Positions 19,062 to 60,490 of a stretch of DNA of 64,000 nucleotides are shown piece by piece (within the stretch, counting starts at the first letter, position 1; each line of letters begins with the position of its first letter). A program made the position numbers and the translations under genes. The notes under the pieces are model-generated. The model was not told the DNA's origin. It saw only the letters and a program-made list of their open reading frames with translations, and did no database searches. This DNA comes from Octopus vulgaris (Eukaryota), in assembly GCA_951406725.2 (NCBI GenBank), contig OX597815.1, positions 2,170,001-2,234,000 of the forward strand, read 5' to 3'.

Positions 19062-22000
19062 CAAACGACTACTACGGACAACTCTGCCACGACCATCACC
19101 ACGACCACCACGACCACCATCACGACCACCATCACCACCACAACCACCACCATCACCACCACCATCACCACCACCATCGCCGCAACCATCACCACCACCA
19201 TCGCTGCCAACACCACGACCACCATCACCACCACCATCACCACCACCATCGCCGCAAGCACCACCACCACCACCAACGCCGCCACTACCAACACCACCAC
19301 CTCCATCACCACCACCATCACCACCATCACCAACTCCACCACCACCACCAACACCATCACCACCACCATCGCCGCAAGCACCACCACCACCACCAACGCC
19401 GCCACTACCATCACCACCACCTCCATCACCACCACCATCACCACCATCACCAACTCCACCACCACAATCACCACCAACTCCACCACCACCACTATCTCCA
19501 CCGCCACCACCCCCACACCACCATCATCACCACCACCACCCCCATCACCAACTCCACAACCACCACCACCACCACCACCACCACCACACCACCACCACCA
19601 TCACCACCATCACCACCACCAACTCCACCACCACCATCACAACCACCACCATCACAACCGACACACGAAGAATTGGAAGAACCCAGACGACAGCTTCACA
19701 GTGAACCACTACTACGGACAACTCTGCCACGACGACCACCACCACGACGACCATGACCACAACGACCACCATCACCACCACCACCACCACCATCACCACC
19801 ACCATCACCACCACCATAGCCGCCACCATCACCACCACCATCGCTGCCACCACCACCACCGTCATCACCACCACCATCACCACCACCATCGCCGCCAGCA
19901 ACACCACCACCACCAACGCCGCCACCACCACCACCACAACCACCACCACCATCAGCATCACCACCATCACCACCATCACCAACTCCACCACCACCACCAT
20001 CACCACCACCAACTCCACCACCAAAACCACCACCAACTCCACCACCACTACCATCTCCACCGCCACCACTACCACCACCACCATCATCACCACCACCATC
20101 ACCACCACCACCATCACCACCACCAACTCCACCACCACCACCACCACTAACTGCACCACCACCATCACCAACTCCACCACCACCAACACCACCATCACCA
20201 CCACCAACTCCACCACCACCACCAACACCAACTCCACCAACAACACCACCAGTACCATCACCACCACCAACTCCACCACCACTACCACGACCAACTCCAC
20301 CACCACCACCATCACCACCACCATCGCCAAAACCACCACCACCACCACCACAACCACTACCAACGCCGCCACCACCACCACCACCACCATCACCACCACT
20401 ACCACCACCATCACCACCACCACAACCATCATCAACTCCACCATCACCATCACCACCACCACCACCACCACCATCACCACCACCACCATCACCACCATCA
20501 CCACCACCACCAGCATCATCACCACCACCAACTCCACCACTACCACCATCACCAACTCCACCACCACCACCATCACCACCACTACCACCATCACCACCAT
20601 CACCAACTCCACCACCACAACAACCACCATCACCACCACCAACTCCACAACCACAACCACCACCAACTCCACCACCACCACCGCCACCACCACCAAAATC
20701 ACCACCACCACCATCATCACCAACTCCACCACCACCACCATTCACCACCACCACCATCACCACCACCACCATAACCACCATCACCACCACCACCATCACC
20801 ACCACCACCACCACCACCATCACCACCACCAACACCACAATCACCACCATTACCACCACCACCACCACCACCACCACCATCACCACCACCAACACCACCA
20901 CCATCATCACCACCACCAACTCCACCACCACCACCACCACCAACTCCACCACCACCACCACCACCACCACCACCAACTGCACCACCACCATCACCAACTC
21001 CACCACCACCACCACCATCACCACCTCCAACACCACCACCACCACCACCACCAACTCCACCACCACTACCACCACCAACTCCACCAACACCACCATCACC
21101 ACCACCATCGCCACCACCACCACCACCACGACCACTACCAACGCCGCAACCACCACCACCACCACCATCACCACCACCACTACCACCACCATCACCACCA
21201 CCACCACCATCATCAACTCCACCATCACCATCACCACCACCACCACTACCACCATCACCACCACCACCACCACCACCACCACCACCACCACCACCACCAC
21301 ATCACCACCACCAACTCCACCACCACCACCAACAACAACTCCACCACCACCACCACCACCATCATCACCACCAACTCCACCACCACAACCACCAACAACT
21401 CCACCACCACCACCACCACCAACTGCACCACCAACTCCACCACTACCACCACCACCAACTCCACCACCACAACCACCACCAACTCCACCACCACCACCAC
21501 CACCAACTGCACCACCACCATCACCAACTCCACCACCACCACCACCACCATCACCACCACCAACTCCACCACTACCACCACCACCATCACCACCACCACC
21601 AACACCACCACCACCACCACCACCACTCCACCACCACAACCACCACCAACTCCACCACCACCACCACCACCAACTGCACCACCACCATCACCAACTCCAC
21701 CACCACCACCACCACCATCACCACCACCAACTCCACCACCACCACCACCACCAACTCCACCACCACAACCACCACCAACTCCACCACCACCACCACCACC
21801 AACTGCACCACCACCATCACCAACTCCACCACCACCACCACCACATCACCACCACCACCAACACCACCACCACCACCACCAACAACTCCACCACCACCAC
21901 CACCACCAACTGCACCGCCACCATCACCAACTCCACCACCACCACCACCACCATCACCACCACCAACTCCACCACCACCACCACCAACAACTCCACCACC

Positions 22001-23770
22001 ACCACCACCACTACCATCACCACCACCAACTCCACCACCACTACCACCACCAACTCCACCAACACCACCATTACCACCACCATCGCCACCACCACCACCA
22101 CCACGACCACTACCAACGCCGCCACCACCACCACCACCACCATCACCATCACTACCACCACCATCACCACCACCACCACCATCATCAACTCCACCATCAC
22201 CACCACCACCATCACCACCATCACCACCACCACCACCATCATCACCACCACCAATTCCACCACCACCACCACCAACAACTCCACCACCACCACCACCACC
22301 ATCACCACCACCAACTCCACCACCACAACCACCACCAACTCCACCACCACCACCACCGCCACCACCATCACCACCATCACCACCACCATCGCCACCACCA
22401 CCATCACCACCATCACCACCACCACCATCATCACCAACTCCACCACCACCATCACCACCACCACCACCACCACCACCACCACCACCACCACCACCACCAC
22501 CACCATCACCACCACCACCATCACCACCACCACCATCACCACCACCACCATCACCACCATCACCACCACCACCATCACCACCACCACCATCACCCCCACC
22601 ATAGCCCCTCCCCACCACCCCCACCACCATCACCACCACCACCACCATCATCACCAACATCACCACCATCACCACCTCCACCACCACCACCACCACCACC
22701 ACCTTCACCACCACCACCATCACCACCATCACTACCACCACCATCACCACCACCACCACCACCACCATCATCATCACCACCATCACCAACTCCACCACCA
22801 CCACCACCACCATCACCACCATCACCACCACCACCATCACAACCACCATCACCACCACCACCACCATCATCACCACCACCATCACCACCATCACCACCAT
22901 CACCACCACCACCACCACCACGTCGACCTTCATCACCACCATCACCACCATCACCACCACCACCACCACCATCATCACCACCATCACCCCCACCACTACC
23001 ACCACCACAATCACCACCACCACCACCATCACCACCACCACCACCATCACCACCACCACCACCACCATCATCACCACCAACACCACCACCACCACCACCA
23101 CCACCACCACCACCACCACCACCACCATCACCACCGCCACCACCACCATCATCACCACCATCACCACCACCACCACCACCACCACCACCAAAACCCTCAC
23201 CACCACCACCACCACCGCCACCACCACGACCATCACCACCACCAAAACCACCACCACCACCACCACCACCACTACCACCACCACCACCACCAACTCCACA
23301 ACCACCACCATCACCACCACCATCACCACCACCATCACCACCACCACCACCACCACCACCACCACCAAAACCACCACCATCACCACCACCATCACCACCA
23401 CCACCACCACCATCACCACCACCAAAACCACCACCACCACCACCACCACCACCACCACAAACCACCACCACCATCACCACCACCAACTCCACCGCCACCA
23501 ACTCCACTACCACAACCACCACCACCACCACCACCACCAACTCTACCACCACCAACTCCACCACCACCACCACCACCACCACAAACCACCACCACCATCA
23601 CCACCACTACCACAACCACTACCACCATCACCACCACCACCACCACCACCACCACCAACTCCACCACCACCAACTCCACCACCACCACCACCACCACCAC
23701 CACCAACTCCACCACCATCACCACCACAACCACCACAACCACCACCACCACCACCATAACCAACACCACC
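19062..23770. repeat. Degenerate (CAC)n array of about 4.7 kb with higher-order repeats
   Basis: Read directly; recurrent ACCAACTCC and ACCAACGCC variants. The unique leader at 19017-19090 is repeated at 19658-19731. Confidence 0.97.
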
Positions 23771-23985
23771 AATTTCCCGTGTGTCGGCGTCCAGGCTCAC
23801 ACCTGCACCTGTGAAGCGTTGTCATGGAGACCACCGTTCTTCTCCCAAAAATTCTAAACTTCGTATTCTTGTAGAATCTGTCAAAATAAAACATTTTTTT
23901 CTCTTGGCTTTATTCAGAAAATTCTAGAGTTTCTAAGATATTTGCTGTTTTTTCTTCTGCAATTTCAACTAATCAATGACGTCTA

Positions 23986-34868: not shown

Positions 34869-35484
34869 ATTTCTTTATTGCCCACAGAGGGCTAAACATA
34901 GAGGGGACAAACTAGGGGACTAAGTCGATTACATCGACCCCAGTAATTAACTGGTACTTATTTAATCGGCCCCGAAAGGATGAAAGGCAAAGTCGACCTT
35001 GGCGGAATTTGAACTCAGAATGTATCGTCAGCCGAAATACCGCTAAACATTTCGCCCGGTGTGCTAACGTTTCTTATTTCTTTATTGCCCATAAGGGGCT
35101 AAACGTAGAGGGGACAAACAAGGACACACAAAGGGATTAAGTCGATTACATCCCTAGTGTGAACTGGTACCTAATTTATCGACCCCGAAAGAATGAAAGG
35201 CAAAGTCGACCTCGGCGGAATTTGAACTCAGAACGTAGCCGCAGACAAAATACCTATTTCTTTACTACCCACAAGGGGCTACTCACAGAGAAGACAAACA
35301 AGGACAGACAGACGGATTAAGTCGATTATATCGACCCCAGTGCATAAATGGTACTTAATTTATTGACCCCCGAAAGGATGAAAGGCAAAGTCGACTACGG
35401 CGGAATTTGAACACAGAACGTAGCGGCAGACGAAATACCGCTATGGATTTCGCCCGGCGTGCTAACGTTTCTGCCAGTTCGCCG
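34869..35484 (-). mobile_element. SINE family B tandem array (three bodies)
   Basis: GGATGAAAGGCAAAGTCGAC...GGCGGAATTTGAAC occurs three times. Confidence 0.85.
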
Positions 35485-35547
35485 ACTTACGTACATACAT
35501 ATATGCATACATACATACATGCATACATACATACATACATACATACA

Positions 35548-35581
<34 letters not shown>

Positions 35582-36051
35582 CATACATACATACACGCAT
35601 ATTTTCCAATAAAAAAGAGATTGACAAACGCGACGCTCTAATACAAGAAGACGTCCGAAGGCGCCGCTCTGCAGAATAAAATGAACATTGAACAAAGGGG
35701 TTACAAGGGAAGCTTTCTAACCACATAGCCTTATCTAGCTCTTAAAGCGTTTCAACCGTGACCTTCTCTTAGAGTATTAAAGATTATATTGTCTGATACA
35801 TCCTTCGTTGGTTAAAAAATTGCGGTGCTGAAATTCGAGGGAGATTTCGCTATCATTTCTAACCGATTGAATACAACGCAATTTCGCTTTTAACTCGTTT
35901 ATATTCTTTAATGGGACAGGACTGTGTTGTCGGATTAATTGTCCCCAGTACATGACTGGTATCCACATCATTGATCAAGGAAGAATGAAATAAAGCAATC
36001 ATCCCTGGTTACACGAAGGGCCACAGCTAAATTTTGCACAATAGCCCGACC

Positions 36052-36293
36052 GTTACTATAGTAACATAGCATTGGGTGGACTCTGTTGTCACCATAGTAA
36101 CCTTTTGTTGTATAGTTTTCAACCGTTTCTATAGTAACATTGTGTAGCATGGTTCTCTGTCGTTACTATAGTAATACGGCGTTGGGGATCTCGCTATCGT
36201 TACTATGGAAACACAGCTGCGTGGATTTCTAGCTTTCTGTTCTTACCATAGTTACAAATTGTGTTTTGGCTCTGTGCTTGTTACTATAGTAAC
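36052..36293. promoter_or_regulatory. Array of seven 14-bp palindromic RFX X-box-like motifs at a period of about 37 bp
   Basis: GTTACTATAGTAAC 36052, GTCACCATAGTAAC 36088, GTTTCTATAGTAAC 36125, GTTACTATAGTAAT 36162, GTTACTATGGAAAC 36199, CTTACCATAGTTAC 36242, GTTACTATAGTAAC 36280. The repeats are certain; RFX binding is inferred. Confidence 0.6.
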
Positions 36294-37123
36294 AGTTTGG
36301 CGTGTGGTTGTGAATCGCACGAGCGCGCACACACTCGTACACGCACATACACACACATACACATATGCATACGCGCAAAACTACACATGCGTACACGCAC
36401 ATTTGCCCGCATTCACGGGTGCGCTTATACTCTCTATAGACATGGGTGCATACATACACGCATATACACATCAGGCATACGCAAATATATATATGCACGT
36501 ACACACGCGTACAGACATACACCCACACACACACATGCATGCACACGTATACATACAAGCATATCCATCCGCAGGCACGCAAGCGCTTACACGCACGTAC
36601 GTAACCCCTTAGCCAGAGAAACCCACCAGACACAGCGTCTTGTGACATACGGCGGTGCCATAATTAATCCCGTGATTGGTGAGAGAGAACCGTTATTGTG
36701 TACGGAACATGTCTATGAAATGTTGTCATCTCCGAGATAAGATATTTATCAAAAGACGACACACAGACGAGCAGATGTTGGAATACATGACCAGAGAAGA
36801 TAGCAAGAGAGTCATACTTCTTATCATCAGCGGTTCACTTTCGAATGAGAACGGCCATCTTCCACCGCTTACTTTCAGCGCAGAATTCCTAAAAATTCTC
36901 GTTATTGCTGATTAAATTGATATTTATTATTGCTGTTATTGTTGTTGTTAAAAGAAATCATTATTATTATTAAAATAAAAAGAAATCATCATTATTGTTG
37001 TTGTTGTTGTTTTTGTTTTTATTAGATTGTTCTCCATGTTTATGGCCCTTGTGGCCAATAAAAGATTCAGATTTGTTTTTGAAGGGAGAGCCCGGTGTAG
37101 CACATCCATGTTGTTGCTAGTGG

Positions 37124-37275
37124 TCTTCTTCTTCTTCTTCTTCTTCTTCTTCTTCTTCTTCTTCTTCTTCTTCTTCTTCTTCTTCTTCTTCTTCTCCTTC
37201 TTCTTCTCCTCCTCCTCCTCCTCCTCCTCCTCCTCCTTCTTCTTCTTCTTCTTCTTCTTCTTCTTCTTCTTCTTT
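37124..37275. repeat. (CTT)n/(CCT)n microsatellite
   Basis: Read directly; adjoins the 3' end of the minus-strand LINE. Confidence 0.95.
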
Positions 37276-37279
37276 CATT

Positions 37280-39352
37280 TTATCCCAGGTTTTGTTAGAA
37301 CTCCTGGTGTATTGCATGCGTAGCGGGCTTACTACCTGCAACCTACGGCACCTTGCTATCTGTTCTTTTCAACTAATACTCTCTTGACTATTCTGGCCGT
37401 GCCAAGGAGGCAAATCTTTTGTTTCATTTTTATTTTCCCCTTTGCCTGGTGGCTGTAGCGAAAGAGGTTGTTTGGTGGACAAGGCTGAAAGGCATGGGGA
37501 CAGATACATTCCTCTTTGGTAGGGCTCTCATTGACTTCGTCAAGTTTCACTTGAAAAGGAAAGTAAGAGTGAAGAGGGAAGCGTTGTCCTCGAGTGAGTT
37601 TATTTAAGGGTGGGTGAAAGTTGCGAAAATGGCAAGAGTGGATGGTACCTCTTTAAGAGTCAAGGAACTGGGGAGGGTACTTGCTCATAGGATTTCAGAG
37701 AAATTTCGGACCGTGGGGTTCCTCGATTATCCCTAGAAGTCTTCCTCTATCAGGAGATCCACATCTCTATCATCCTCCCCACCACTTTTTTAACCTTTCT
37801 ATGTTATGCATACTTTTGCAGTGTATACCGTGTATACGTACTTTCTTTCTTTCCTATTTTTATCATTTCATTATAGGTAAACCCCCACACTTTATGTCTG
37901 TTTTTGTATTGCCCCACCTCAGTTTGGGTTTTGCTGGTATCTGAGCTTGGTAGCAATCAGCTCCTTTTGCTATCATTCCTAGGGTACCTATGACAACAGG
38001 TATTGTTTTAGACTTGAGGTTCCACATTTTGTCAATTTCTTTTTAAAGATCTTTATACATGCTCAGTTTTCGGTAGGTCTTGACAGATAGATTAATATCG
38101 ATTGGGACAGTCATATCAATGAGGACGAAGGATTTTTGTCTGAAGTCATTCAATACAATGTCTGGCCTGTTTGGCCATCTATCTCTCTGTCAGTTTGAAA
38201 GATAAATGAAAGATAGATGGTGAAGTTCCAGTGGACAGAGATGTAATCATTTTCAAGCACTGGAGGTGGTTTGTGTTCCCACCAGTTTTTATCATGGGAC
38301 AGGTCCAACTTTTCGCAAATTACCCAGTGAATATATTATGCTGCTCTACCATGCCTGTTGAGATACTCTGTAGGCTCAAGAAGACTTCACCTGGAGACAA
38401 CATGATCAATGGTTTCATTTTGTTGTTGACCTACACGTTGGGCAGCTGCCATTCTTTAATATGCTGGCCTGGTAGTTCCTCGTAGGTAGGCATTGATCTT
38501 GGGCTGCTATGATAAGCCCTTCTGTTTCTGATTTCAAGCCATACGCCATTAGCCATTGATGGGTAACCATGGATGGGCATTATTAGTTCTCTCTGGGTAT
38601 TTGCCTTTGAGAGAATTTTCTTGCCATTTATCATTCAGAATATCTAAGGCAGCAGTTTTAGGACGGGTTTTCATACGCTTAGCTTTATCTGTGCTTGTTT
38701 CACTAGAAATGAATTCAGGAATTTGTTGTATTTGGAATTCACTTAAATATTCCTTTGCCTGTTTTGTTACTGAGTATGATGCTTTCTTGTTTTCATGTTT
38801 TGAGACAAGTTTTAACAGCCAGTCATCAGAAATTTTCAGGTAGGTGTCTTGGTCAATTGTGGCAATCTTCATTGTTATTGCCAGTTGTAAAAGTCCATGG
38901 CCTCCCTCTTTTCTTGGCAGATAAAGTCGTTCTGTATCTGCCTTAGGGTAGTGCATTCTATGCATTGTCAACAATTTTCGTATTTTTCTGTCAAGATTAC
39001 ATATTTCAGTAATTGACCAGTTATCGTTATTGAAACTGTAGGTCACGACTGGTTTGGCTAAATCATTGTCTGCTTCGATCCTGTTTCTTGCATCCAGCTC
39101 TGTCTTGAATATTGCTCTTACTCCGCAAAAATATTCTCTTCTGATTCTTTTCCTCATCACTGAATGTTTGATTCCGTTCCCTTCAAATAGCTACAGGTAT
39201 TTGTAGCTTTCTGCTGGTCAAGATTAACGTTAGATGTTTCTGTCATTTTTCCTTTGATAAAAGTAGCTTTTGCACATTTATCGAGCCCAAATTGCATCCT
39301 CATGTCATCACTGAATTGTTTAACAATCGTTAGTAAGCCCTTGAGTTGTTGG

Positions 39353-40922: not shown

Positions 40923-42386
40923 AAGGTGACAAGCTGACGAAATTGGTTGAGCGTTGGACAAAACGCTTTGAAGAATTTCTTCCGGGTCTTTTCCGTTTTA
41001 GTTCAATGCCCGTCTGGGTTAATTTGTATTTCATCCTTTCGGGTTGGGTTTCAATTGTATTAACGGAAGTTTTTCGGATTGTTTGAAGGTTTATCTAATC
41101 ATCTCGGAAAGAAAAAAAGAAGCGTTTGTTTTGAGGTATTTTTAAATATTTATATATTCTTATTAAAAAGTCATTTGTGATATTTTCACAGATCGTAATA
41201 TGGCTTCCTCAGAAGTAGAAGGAAGAGATGTTCGTCACAGTGGTTGCACTAGTTGTCTCAGGTAACACGCCTTCAAATTACTTTCAAGCAAAAGAAAATA
41301 TATAATGGAAAAGAGAAATATCTATATAGTTAAATTTTTCAAATGGAAATGTTTATAATTATACAATGGAAGACACCATGGAAAATAGTGCTGGAATCAT
41401 TAATTTGTATGGTGATAGTGGTGGAGGAACTGCATGAAGAGTAGCAACAATAACAGCAACAACGGCATTCTCTCATCTGCAAATGCTGTGAGTGAAAACG
41501 AGGGACTTGACAGGAAGCATCTCAAAGCAAAGAAGAACTGAACGAAATACAGAGGAGAGTGCTTCCTTGCTCGATATCGTTGGAAATGAAATACTTGTGC
41601 TCAAAAATATAAAAGAAAATTACGGTGAGTGGTTTTTATATTCCTATGAAAGCTGCAGCTGATGTGTGGAAGGATATATCCTCCATCGGTCCGGGAACGA
41701 TATATTAAGACCCTGCAAAAGGCGTAAAGACAAATATAGCACAAGCCCTCAAGATTAGTGTCCGGCGTGCTGGAAGACGTGTGACAGTGAGGCACCTGTT
41801 AGCTATTGTTAAAGCGTTTCTCTAAAACCTGCTTTAAACCTAGGCTCTGGTTATCGGCTGTGGCTCGGTCAGCGAATCCTCTGCGACGGTCGACAATCAA
41901 CCGCAAGACGAGCTGCTACGTATGTGTTTACATGTGACTGGGGACCACCCGTGAACTTGTATTCCCACTGAATTTCCGAAATCAGCTCAACTCCACCCAA
42001 GTACAAGAACATGTAAATAGAGACAAGTTGAACCATAAACCTGTTCATTGGGCGATGCCACGGTATAGGAGTGTTAGGAATACTCGAATAATGACCATAG
42101 ATATTGGCGGAGGTGCCAAAGCTTGGCTCTGGTGTTACCCTTTACTCGATATTATTGACGTGTCGAGGTTAGAGGTGAGTTCTATTATCGGTTTCGATCT
42201 GCGTGGATATTCATTCCCTAATGATACCCGCAAAGCACAAGACTATGTCGATATTGTAACCTAATTACTAGGAGTGCAGTGCAGAGGGTTCACTTATCAA
42301 ACAGTAGCAGTTTAATAATTGACTTGAGGAACTTTTGTAGAGAAAAGGACACGAAAAAAGGGGTCTAGCTTACAGCTGCGCTTAAA

Positions 42387-59914: not shown

Positions 59915-60490
59915 TATAAGAGAAAACAGGAGCCCATCTTTTCAGCCGAAGACGACAATGAGAAGCTGTAGCTTGTGGTTGTGGTGAATTCGATGGTGTA
60001 GTTAACACAATCCTGATCATCAACAACACTCTCAATTGAGTTATAAGTGAATATTTCTCCCGGAAGTTTATTCAATAGCATATTATTAATGCTGTTTACA
60101 GCAACATTTTTTCAGAGCCGGGATAGCTCGCTCACAGATCCAATCTGTATTGCTATAATTATGAAGAAGATTAGGAAAGATTTCATCCACCAAATCATCG
60201 ACGGAATCAGTTGAGTTACTTATTGGATTGAGTGTAAGAAACTGTTCTTCGTCGATTGGAAGTCTCCTTTCACCGAGTTTCAAAAGCTGCTCTGCAAAGA
60301 GTTCAGCTGATTGGTCTATTGAAAGCCTCGATCTCATATCTGTCGAAAGTTGAAGTGTCTTCACATGATGCCATAATACAGAAGACTTTATTGAAGCGCA
60401 ATCAATTAGTGTTGCCACCCTTGAACCATTTAGTTTCATTCTGTGGGACAAACAAACTCACGGACAGACTCTTATATATATATATATATA
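59915..60490 (-). mobile_element. Helitron fragment carrying part of the PIF1 helicase
   Basis: ASIKSSVLWHHVKTLQLSTDMR...FAEQLLKLGE...IFPNL...WICERAI, a frameshift, then INNMLLNKLPGEIFTYNSIESV...NYTIEF. Helitron-like 5' end TATATAAGAGTCTGTCCGTGAG at about 60480. Confidence 0.85.

What the first reader, a model, noticed from the sequence alone, without database searches (positions are those of the whole stretch)
36052..36293. Phased array of seven X-box palindromes separated by diverged spacers
Seen: a 14-bp palindrome (consensus GTTACTATAGTAAC) at start-to-start intervals of 36, 37, 37, 37, 43 and 38 bp, with 22-29 bp spacers that are all different and only faintly related (most end in a CTCTGTY-like word), in otherwise unique sequence. 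Known: five of seven fit the RFX X-box consensus RTHNYYWTRRNRAC; RFX factors drive ciliary and sensory-neuron genes, typically through one or two boxes. Inference: an old 37-bp minisatellite in which only the palindrome and the spacing (about 3.5 helical turns) were retained, implying selection for a multivalent protein-binding platform; a recombinase or transposase site array is an alternative.
Basis: partly seen in the sequence, partly recalled or inferred. Interest (0 to 1): 0.75.

Follow-up and report, generated by a model that had tools for sequence, protein, structure and literature searches.

The report
Old RFX-box minisatellite, not helically phased
This is an old, single-copy tandem repeat in an octopus-type genome whose units have decayed except for a 14-base word matching the binding site of RFX gene regulators; it likely acts as a redundant cluster of RFX landing sites, but its even spacing is inherited from the repeat, is broken in related species, and no target gene or binding is shown.

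Summary
In detail: seven 14-bp palindromes at the stated spacing, the only such sites in the window. The array is single-copy and has an orthologue in four other organisms. Boxes match their consensus at 89 of 98 positions, spacers at 97 of 156, beyond what uniform decay gives. Between species the result is mixed. Close relatives show 0 box and 8 spacer changes. The most distant one shows 6 box and 15 spacer changes (p=0.18) and erodes boxes 1, 2 and 4. Phasing is not supported: the 43-bp step comes from a 29-bp deletion of a decayed eighth unit, another species lost 5 bp, and 31 X-box clusters genome-wide share no helical phase. Paired X-boxes are enriched (33/32 versus 0/0 control), but those checked lie beside non-ciliary genes or in transposons. 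No ciliary gene was found within about 100 kb. Best reading: a homotypic RFX-site cluster made by local duplication, boxes probably kept by selection, spacing not. It is a new member of a known kind.

The parts
36052..36065 (.). Box 1, perfect palindrome, X-box match
   Evidence: no change listed in organisms B, C, D; first base changed in E
36088..36101 (.). Box 2, X-box match (2 mismatches to the array consensus)
   Evidence: in E a 5-bp deletion removes its first two bases and positions 4, 6 and 9 differ; alignment there is ambiguous
36125..36138 (.). Box 3, X-box match
   Evidence: no change listed in B-E
36162..36175 (.). Box 4, X-box match on the - strand only
   Evidence: positions 3 and 5 differ in E
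36199..36212 (.). Box 5, X-box match
   Evidence: no change listed in B-E
36213..36241 (.). Long spacer: site of a 29-bp deletion that removed a decayed eighth box; D and E keep it, giving 72 bp = 35 + 37
   Evidence: insertion rows (runs X8, X12, X17); the decayed box (4 of 14 mismatches in E) was read by eye from those rows
36242..36255 (.). Box 6, degenerate (3 mismatches, fails the relaxed consensus on both strands) yet with no change listed between species
36280..36293 (.). Box 7, perfect palindrome, X-box match
   Evidence: no change listed in B, D, E; the C contig ends at 36285
36052..36316 (.). Whole decayed 36-37 bp tandem array (seven units here, eight in D and E)
35600..36051 (.). 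Single-copy upstream flank, orthologous in B-E, 6-9% diverged in E, with short relics of dispersed repeats

Best explanation
The array is an old 36-37 bp tandem repeat built around an X-box-like palindrome, and it likely works as a redundant (homotypic) cluster of RFX binding sites in which purifying selection has probably kept several boxes while spacers, spacing and box number drift. Shown: common descent of the units, much better preservation of boxes than spacers, single-copy orthology in five organisms, loss and decay of single boxes, RFX genes in the genome. Inferred: local duplication of one bound site as the origin, RFX binding, an enhancer-like effect on a distant or unrecognised transcript, and selection as the reason the boxes persist.
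For: Boxes 89 of 98 versus spacers 97 of 156 matches to consensus, Fisher p=2e-7. Under uniform decay of seven 37-bp units, a best 14-column window this conserved arose in at most 0.15% of 20,000 simulations per setting, in star and serial-duplication models. The conserved window is also a palindrome that fits the X-box; a validated C. elegans box (osm-6) differs from box 2 at one base and from the array consensus at one base (PMC3245922 table passage, compared by eye). Versus B/C/D: 0 of 98 box and 8 of 144 spacer positions changed, p=0.014. Boxes 3, 5, 6 and 7 show no listed change even in E. Five RFX-domain loci exist, one RFX1/2/3-like by eye. Paired full X-boxes 12-40 bp apart: 33 forward and 32 reverse against 0 and 0 for the reversed control and 0.8 expected from single-site density. 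Local duplication as a source of site clusters is documented (PMC3188502 abstract; PMC8559717 passages), and three tandem X-box-variant copies drive a reporter in worm neurons (bioRxiv 2021.02.03.429678 passages).
Against: Versus E: 6 of 98 box and 15 of 144 spacer changes (p=0.18). The box rate (6%) equals the flank rate (6-9%), and changes seen only in E are 6 versus 8 (p=0.68). E has damaged boxes 1 and 2. An eighth box decayed and was deleted. Three D-only changes were hidden and could fall in boxes. The nearest Pfam-recognised host gene found is a chitin-binding (CBM_14) gene about 75 kb downstream; small exons could have been missed. With a truncated 11-bp core, triples are not enriched (28/11 versus 22/25 control). 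An X-box match alone does not predict RFX control in Drosophila (PMC2375033 passage). There are no binding, chromatin or expression data.
Confidence: 0.5

Rival explanations
1. Mutation-driven cluster with little or no present function. A germline-bound or palindromic X-box promotes short local duplications and box-centred repair, so boxes are renewed and spacers are not, without selection for gene regulation.
For: 24 of 31 paired-box loci match neither of the two repeat families tested and many look like independent local duplications with periods of about 9-54 bp, several between or beside exons of unrelated genes. Human germline-bound sites gain motif-duplicating insertions (PMC8559717 passages; RFX is not mentioned there). 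Box changes run at flank rate on the E branch.
Against: The insertions in that paper are 5-20 bp and would copy spacers too. No listed change between species restores a box; the one insertion/deletion seen in A-C removed one. The 0 versus 8 result in B-D fits constraint better.
Confidence: 0.22
2. Orphan relic of an extinct DNA transposon end. The boxes were conserved while the element was active, and the copy has been neutral since insertion.
For: X-boxes do sit in transposon ends here: 7 of the first 13 other loci with the exact 14-mer share the flank of a mariner-type element with long inverted repeats and an HTH_48 remnant, and a second repeat family carries pairs. It would explain both the within-array contrast and the neutral rate in E. 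Unchecked notes from other genomes report X-box arrays at Academ and Helitron ends.
Against: No second copy of the array or its flank in the genome or among the contigs laid from four other organisms. No partner cluster in 264 kb. Spacers resemble the mariner end only marginally (6 of 300 shuffles reach the score) and the second family not at all (81 of 300).
Confidence: 0.17
3. One reading: a helically phased multivalent platform in which the 3.5-turn spacing is itself selected, controlling a ciliary or sensory gene.
For: Five of six steps are 36-38 bp, and with the eighth unit the long step splits into 35 + 37 in D and E.
Against: Even spacing is expected of any tandem repeat. A, B and C carry a 43-bp step and E a 31-bp step. 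Other clusters show no phase at 10.0-10.6 bp (p 0.44-0.57 per locus). No ciliary gene was found nearby.
Confidence: 0.08
4. Array of recombinase or transposase recognition sites with captured spacers (integron- or CRISPR-like).
For: Palindromic repeats with dissimilar spacers of similar length.
Against: Spacers descend from one unit (z about 5), match nothing else in the genome and are the same in order and content across five organisms. No recombinase frame was recognised in the ORF lists (outputs partly cut, judged by eye).
Confidence: 0.03

Closest known systems
RFX/DAF-19 X-box promoters with multiple boxes (C. elegans F25B4.2; PMC3245922, abstract and passages read)
   Same: 14-bp imperfect palindrome fitting the X-box consensus; more than one box per locus
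   Different: Validated worm boxes mostly lie within 500 bp of a start codon and the studied gene has two; here seven to eight in a decayed repeat, with no gene start identified
Homotypic binding-site clusters formed by local duplication (Nourmohammad and Lassig 2011, PMC3188502, abstract; Kaiser et al. 2021, PMC8559717, passages)
   Same: Neighbouring sites within about 50 bp share ancestry through tandem duplication
   Different: Longer unit (36-37 bp), more copies, RFX motif, and near-complete spacer decay; binding not shown
HSE-bearing Helitron repeats of Caenorhabditis (Garrigues et al. 2019, PMC6927752, passages)
   Same: Dense array of one transcription-factor motif within repetitive DNA
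   Different: Those are multicopy transposons with shown HSF-1 binding; this array is single-copy with no element ends
CENP-B box in alpha satellite (recalled; also named in an unchecked note)
   Same: A protein-binding box outlasting the rest of a tandem unit
   Different: 240-bp dispersed locus rather than a centromeric satellite; different motif

Membership tests
RFX X-box cis-element | Match to the 14-bp X-box consensus | tested here: met
   5 of 7 on + strand, 6 of 7 on either strand; consensus taken from the finding, variants recalled
RFX X-box cis-element | RFX factor encoded in the genome | tested here: met
   6 matches at 5 loci over the PF02257 cut-off
RFX X-box cis-element | Box conserved between species above background | tested here: inconclusive
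   0/98 vs 8/144 in B-D (p=0.014); 6/98 vs 15/144 in E (p=0.18)
RFX X-box cis-element | Promoter-proximal to a ciliary or other RFX target gene | tested here: inconclusive
   No such gene recognised in 264 kb; nearest Pfam host gene CBM_14 about 75 kb away; short or non-coding exons not excluded
RFX X-box cis-element | RFX binding and RFX-dependent expression | not testable with these tools
   needs EMSA, ChIP or reporter
Homotypic cluster by local duplication | Units share ancestry outside the motif | tested here: met
   spacer similarity above all 2000 shuffles; unit alignment
Helically phased array | Spacing kept modulo one helical turn across species and loci | tested here: not met
   29-bp and 5-bp indels; Rayleigh p about 0.45 over 31 loci
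Transposon subterminal repeat (mariner, Academ, Helitron) | Dispersed copies sharing array and flanks | tested here: not met
   single hit; 5 hits to a spacer-plus-box pattern, with no shared array beyond the unrelated C3 cluster; these searches skip very common words
Transposon subterminal repeat (mariner, Academ, Helitron) | Element ends, target-site duplication or partner end | tested here: not met
   no partner X-box cluster in 264 kb; no long inverted repeat in 35000-37400
Structured non-coding RNA | Rfam match over the array | tested here: not met
   0 of 45 matches at E<=1 overlap 36052-36293; none reaches its gathering score

The most novel reading that the evidence does not exclude
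RFX-bound X-boxes in the octopus germline act as seeds of local tandem duplication, so the genome has repeatedly and independently grown X-box minisatellites (this one, and arrays on C3, C14, C17, C22, C26). These then mature into RFX-responsive enhancers in non-ciliary genes, with mariner-type ends supplying new seeds. This array would be the old, mature end of that series.
Probability: 0.15. Interest if true: 0.7.

Novelty: new member of a known kind. Interest (0 to 1): 0.38.

Why it matters
If functional, it shows that a decayed minisatellite can be kept as an RFX enhancer far from any classical ciliary promoter. It also offers a natural allelic series (seven or eight units, boxes lost one by one, spacing changed) for testing whether site number or spacing matters. 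The genome-wide set of young and old X-box arrays would let one follow how homotypic clusters arise. If non-functional, it warns that X-box clusters are poor predictors of ciliary genes in repeat-rich genomes.

Tried and rejected
Expression: no RNA holder listed for 35600-36330; this is no evidence either way, and both read-laying runs went to the cross-species test, so no transcript start was mapped. Target gene: exon and ORF scans of 264 kb (23 and 45 partly cut) and Pfam on 18 ORFs chosen by eye found only CBM_14 exons and transposon remnants near the array. A splice-flanked 70-bp candidate exon at 41192-41261 found no in-frame partner and one weak paralogue. Derivation from the mariner end: weak and rejected. 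Relation to other arrays: BLAST hits to them are box-driven, 60-75% identity. Triples of a truncated core: no excess over control; a triple search with full boxes could not be run. The copy number of the mariner-type element was not obtained, so its share of the 8,672 single boxes is open. CpG observed/expected is 1.0-1.4 across 34900-37000 against a median of 0.81 and 90th percentile of 1.12, but SINEs and simple repeats inflate it and the array itself is 0.77; not used. Rfam: nothing. Literature: seven full-text searches found no description of X-box minisatellites in cephalopods. The library lacks most subscription papers, and supplements were not read. Earlier notes near this place or by sequence: none.

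Full report
Setting. The window is G000:C2:2170001-2234000, 2.2 Mb from the start of a 215.6-Mb contig in a 2.8-Gb genome. It is rich in microsatellites, SINE-like repeats and LINE fragments. I recognise the SINEs as octopus-type from memory, and unchecked notes on this genome also call it octopus.

Observation. Confirmed as written. Seven sites within 3 mismatches of the consensus exist in the window, all in the array, with the stated spacing. Five fit the relaxed X-box consensus on the + strand and six on either strand. Spacers are alike above chance, so the units share an ancestor. In a unit alignment, boxes match the majority letter at 89 of 98 positions and spacers at 97 of 156 (p=2e-7). 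Because the boxes were picked for being conserved, I simulated seven 37-bp units decaying uniformly. The best 14-column window reached 89 in at most 0.15% of runs in any star setting, and in at most 0.06% of serial-duplication runs of matching overall identity. At a uniform rate the array would be 9-13 times older than the split from the most distant organism laid; repeats may decay faster, so this is an upper bound.

Copy number. The array has one match in the genome, its upstream 450 bp one extra 38-bp match, and a spacer-plus-box pattern five hits: the array itself, one beside the unrelated C3 cluster and three isolated sites. No other X-box cluster lies in the 264 kb examined. These searches skip very common words, but the contigs laid from four other organisms also show one orthologous piece each across the array. 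It is not a high-copy transposon repeat.

Between species. Runs of organisms B, C, D and E were laid (5 of 24 listed runs). Against B, C and D, eight listed substitutions fall in the array, all in spacers (0 of 98 versus 8 of 144, p=0.014). Three D-only rows were hidden, and the C contig stops at 36285. Against E (two runs of two studies, agreeing apart from gap placement) there are 6 box and 15 spacer substitutions (p=0.18), with flanks at 5.8% and 9.0%; changes seen only in E are 6 versus 8 (p=0.68). Boxes 3, 5, 6 and 7 show no change. Box 1 loses its first base, and box 2 loses its first two bases to a 5-bp deletion and differs at three positions that the consensus leaves degenerate. Box 4 differs at two positions and, by hand, still fits the relaxed consensus on the - strand. 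So E keeps four matching boxes where the window has six.

Phasing. A 29-bp and a 5-bp change of spacing were each tolerated. The regularity is what a tandem repeat inherits.

Genome-wide context. The exact 14-mer occurs 85 times against 42 for the reversed control, and a degenerate X-box 8,672/8,680 times against 1,156/1,101. Part of this comes from transposons: 7 of the first 13 other loci with the exact word share the flank of a mariner-type element of about 0.85 kb with long inverted repeats and an HTH_48 remnant, one box in each end. Pairs of full boxes 12-40 bp apart number 33/32 against 0/0, where 0.8 are expected from density and about 4 control pairs at the same per-site rate. They fall in 31 loci: 3 mariner-derived, 4 from a second repeat family, 24 matching neither, and 9 with four or more boxes. 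Their spacers are unrelated to this array. Those with recognisable neighbours lie just behind a C2H2 zinc-finger frame (C14) or between or beside exons with APP, Apg6/Beclin, C2, helicase OB-fold and UBA domains; none looks like a ciliary promoter, though gene models were not available. Against a special propensity, triples of a truncated 11-bp core are no more common than control (28/11 versus 22/25), both counts being dominated by young homogeneous repeats.

Reader and target. The genome has five RFX-domain loci. The nearest recognised host gene is a CBM_14 chitin-binding gene about 75 kb downstream; a candidate exon at 41192-41261 could not be validated. No Rfam family overlaps the array.

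Mechanism. Most likely (0.5) one X-box with its flank was tandemly duplicated about eight times long ago, and the cluster has since served as a redundant RFX landing pad. Selection would keep enough good boxes but not any given box or the spacing. Duplication origin, box preservation and turnover are shown; binding, regulatory effect and selection are inferred. Rivals are a mutation-driven cluster without function (0.22), an orphan transposon end (0.17), the phased platform (0.08) and a recombinase array (0.03).

Relation to known systems. It works like a homotypic cluster formed by local duplication (PMC3188502, abstract and outline; PMC8559717, passages) using the RFX X-box (PMC3245922, abstract and passages; PMC2375033, passages; bioRxiv 2021.02.03.429678, passages). 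It passes the motif test, is inconclusive on conservation and gene context, and fails the phasing and transposon tests. PMC6927752 (passages) is the transposon analogue; PMC4408798 (passages) links RFX4 motifs to mammalian piRNA clusters and was not pursued. Seven literature searches found no account of such arrays in cephalopods; supplements were not read. Unchecked notes from other genomes describe X-box arrays in transposon ends and satellites; they prompted the transposon test and are not support.

Verdict. Real, old and non-random, but less special than proposed: a new member of a known kind, interest 0.38.

Noticed in passing
L016:653-1548, L014:1477-2306 (also L004, L008, L009, L011, L012): Mariner-type non-autonomous element of about 0.85 kb with inverted repeats of roughly 250 bp and an HTH_48 remnant, carrying a strong X-box about 30 bp inside each end; a likely large source of X-boxes in this genome. 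Copy number not obtained.
   Followed up: partly
L045, L052, L053, L073 (about position 1500; L073 about 5040): Second dispersed repeat family with paired X-boxes next to a CCAAT word and, in some copies, an NRF1-like palindrome (motif names recalled); looks like a transposon-borne promoter module.
   Followed up: partly
G000:C14:77727146-77727351 (L019:1467-1672): Younger seven-box array, period about 34 bp, within about 0.2 kb behind the end of a long C2H2 zinc-finger reading frame.
   Followed up: partly
G000:C22:22494491-22494821 (L070) and C26:22653173-22653886 (L074): X-box arrays with steps in multiples of about 36 bp beside a Beclin-like exon (C22), and 14 boxes at about 44 bp with higher-order duplications (C26).
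   Followed up: partly
G000:C3:143045680-143045900 (L083): Strongly decayed cluster of about six X-box-like sites at 35-38 bp steps.
   Followed up: partly
L060:1284-1780: Near-perfect 247-bp inverted repeat (99%) with an X-box in each arm.
   Followed up: no
window 41192-41261 +: Splice-flanked 70-bp segment with an ATG and 20 open codons; no in-frame next exon found; 77% match on C19.
   Followed up: partly
window 36607-36897 -: Apparently single-copy stretch with acceptor- and donor-like ends on the - strand but no open frame; possible non-coding exon or repeat relic 300 bp from the array.
   Followed up: partly
L029:7310-7636 and L030:3197-3544 +: Exons of a chitin-binding peritrophin-A (CBM_14) gene 75-81 kb downstream of the array.
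   Followed up: partly
window 19087-23771: 4.7-kb imperfect trinucleotide repeat attached to a repeat unit that recurs at 18.8 and 23.8-24.2 kb and contains an X-box-like site.
   Followed up: no
window 60089-60457 -: PIF1-like helicase fragment (below Pfam cut-off), probably a Helitron remnant.
   Followed up: no
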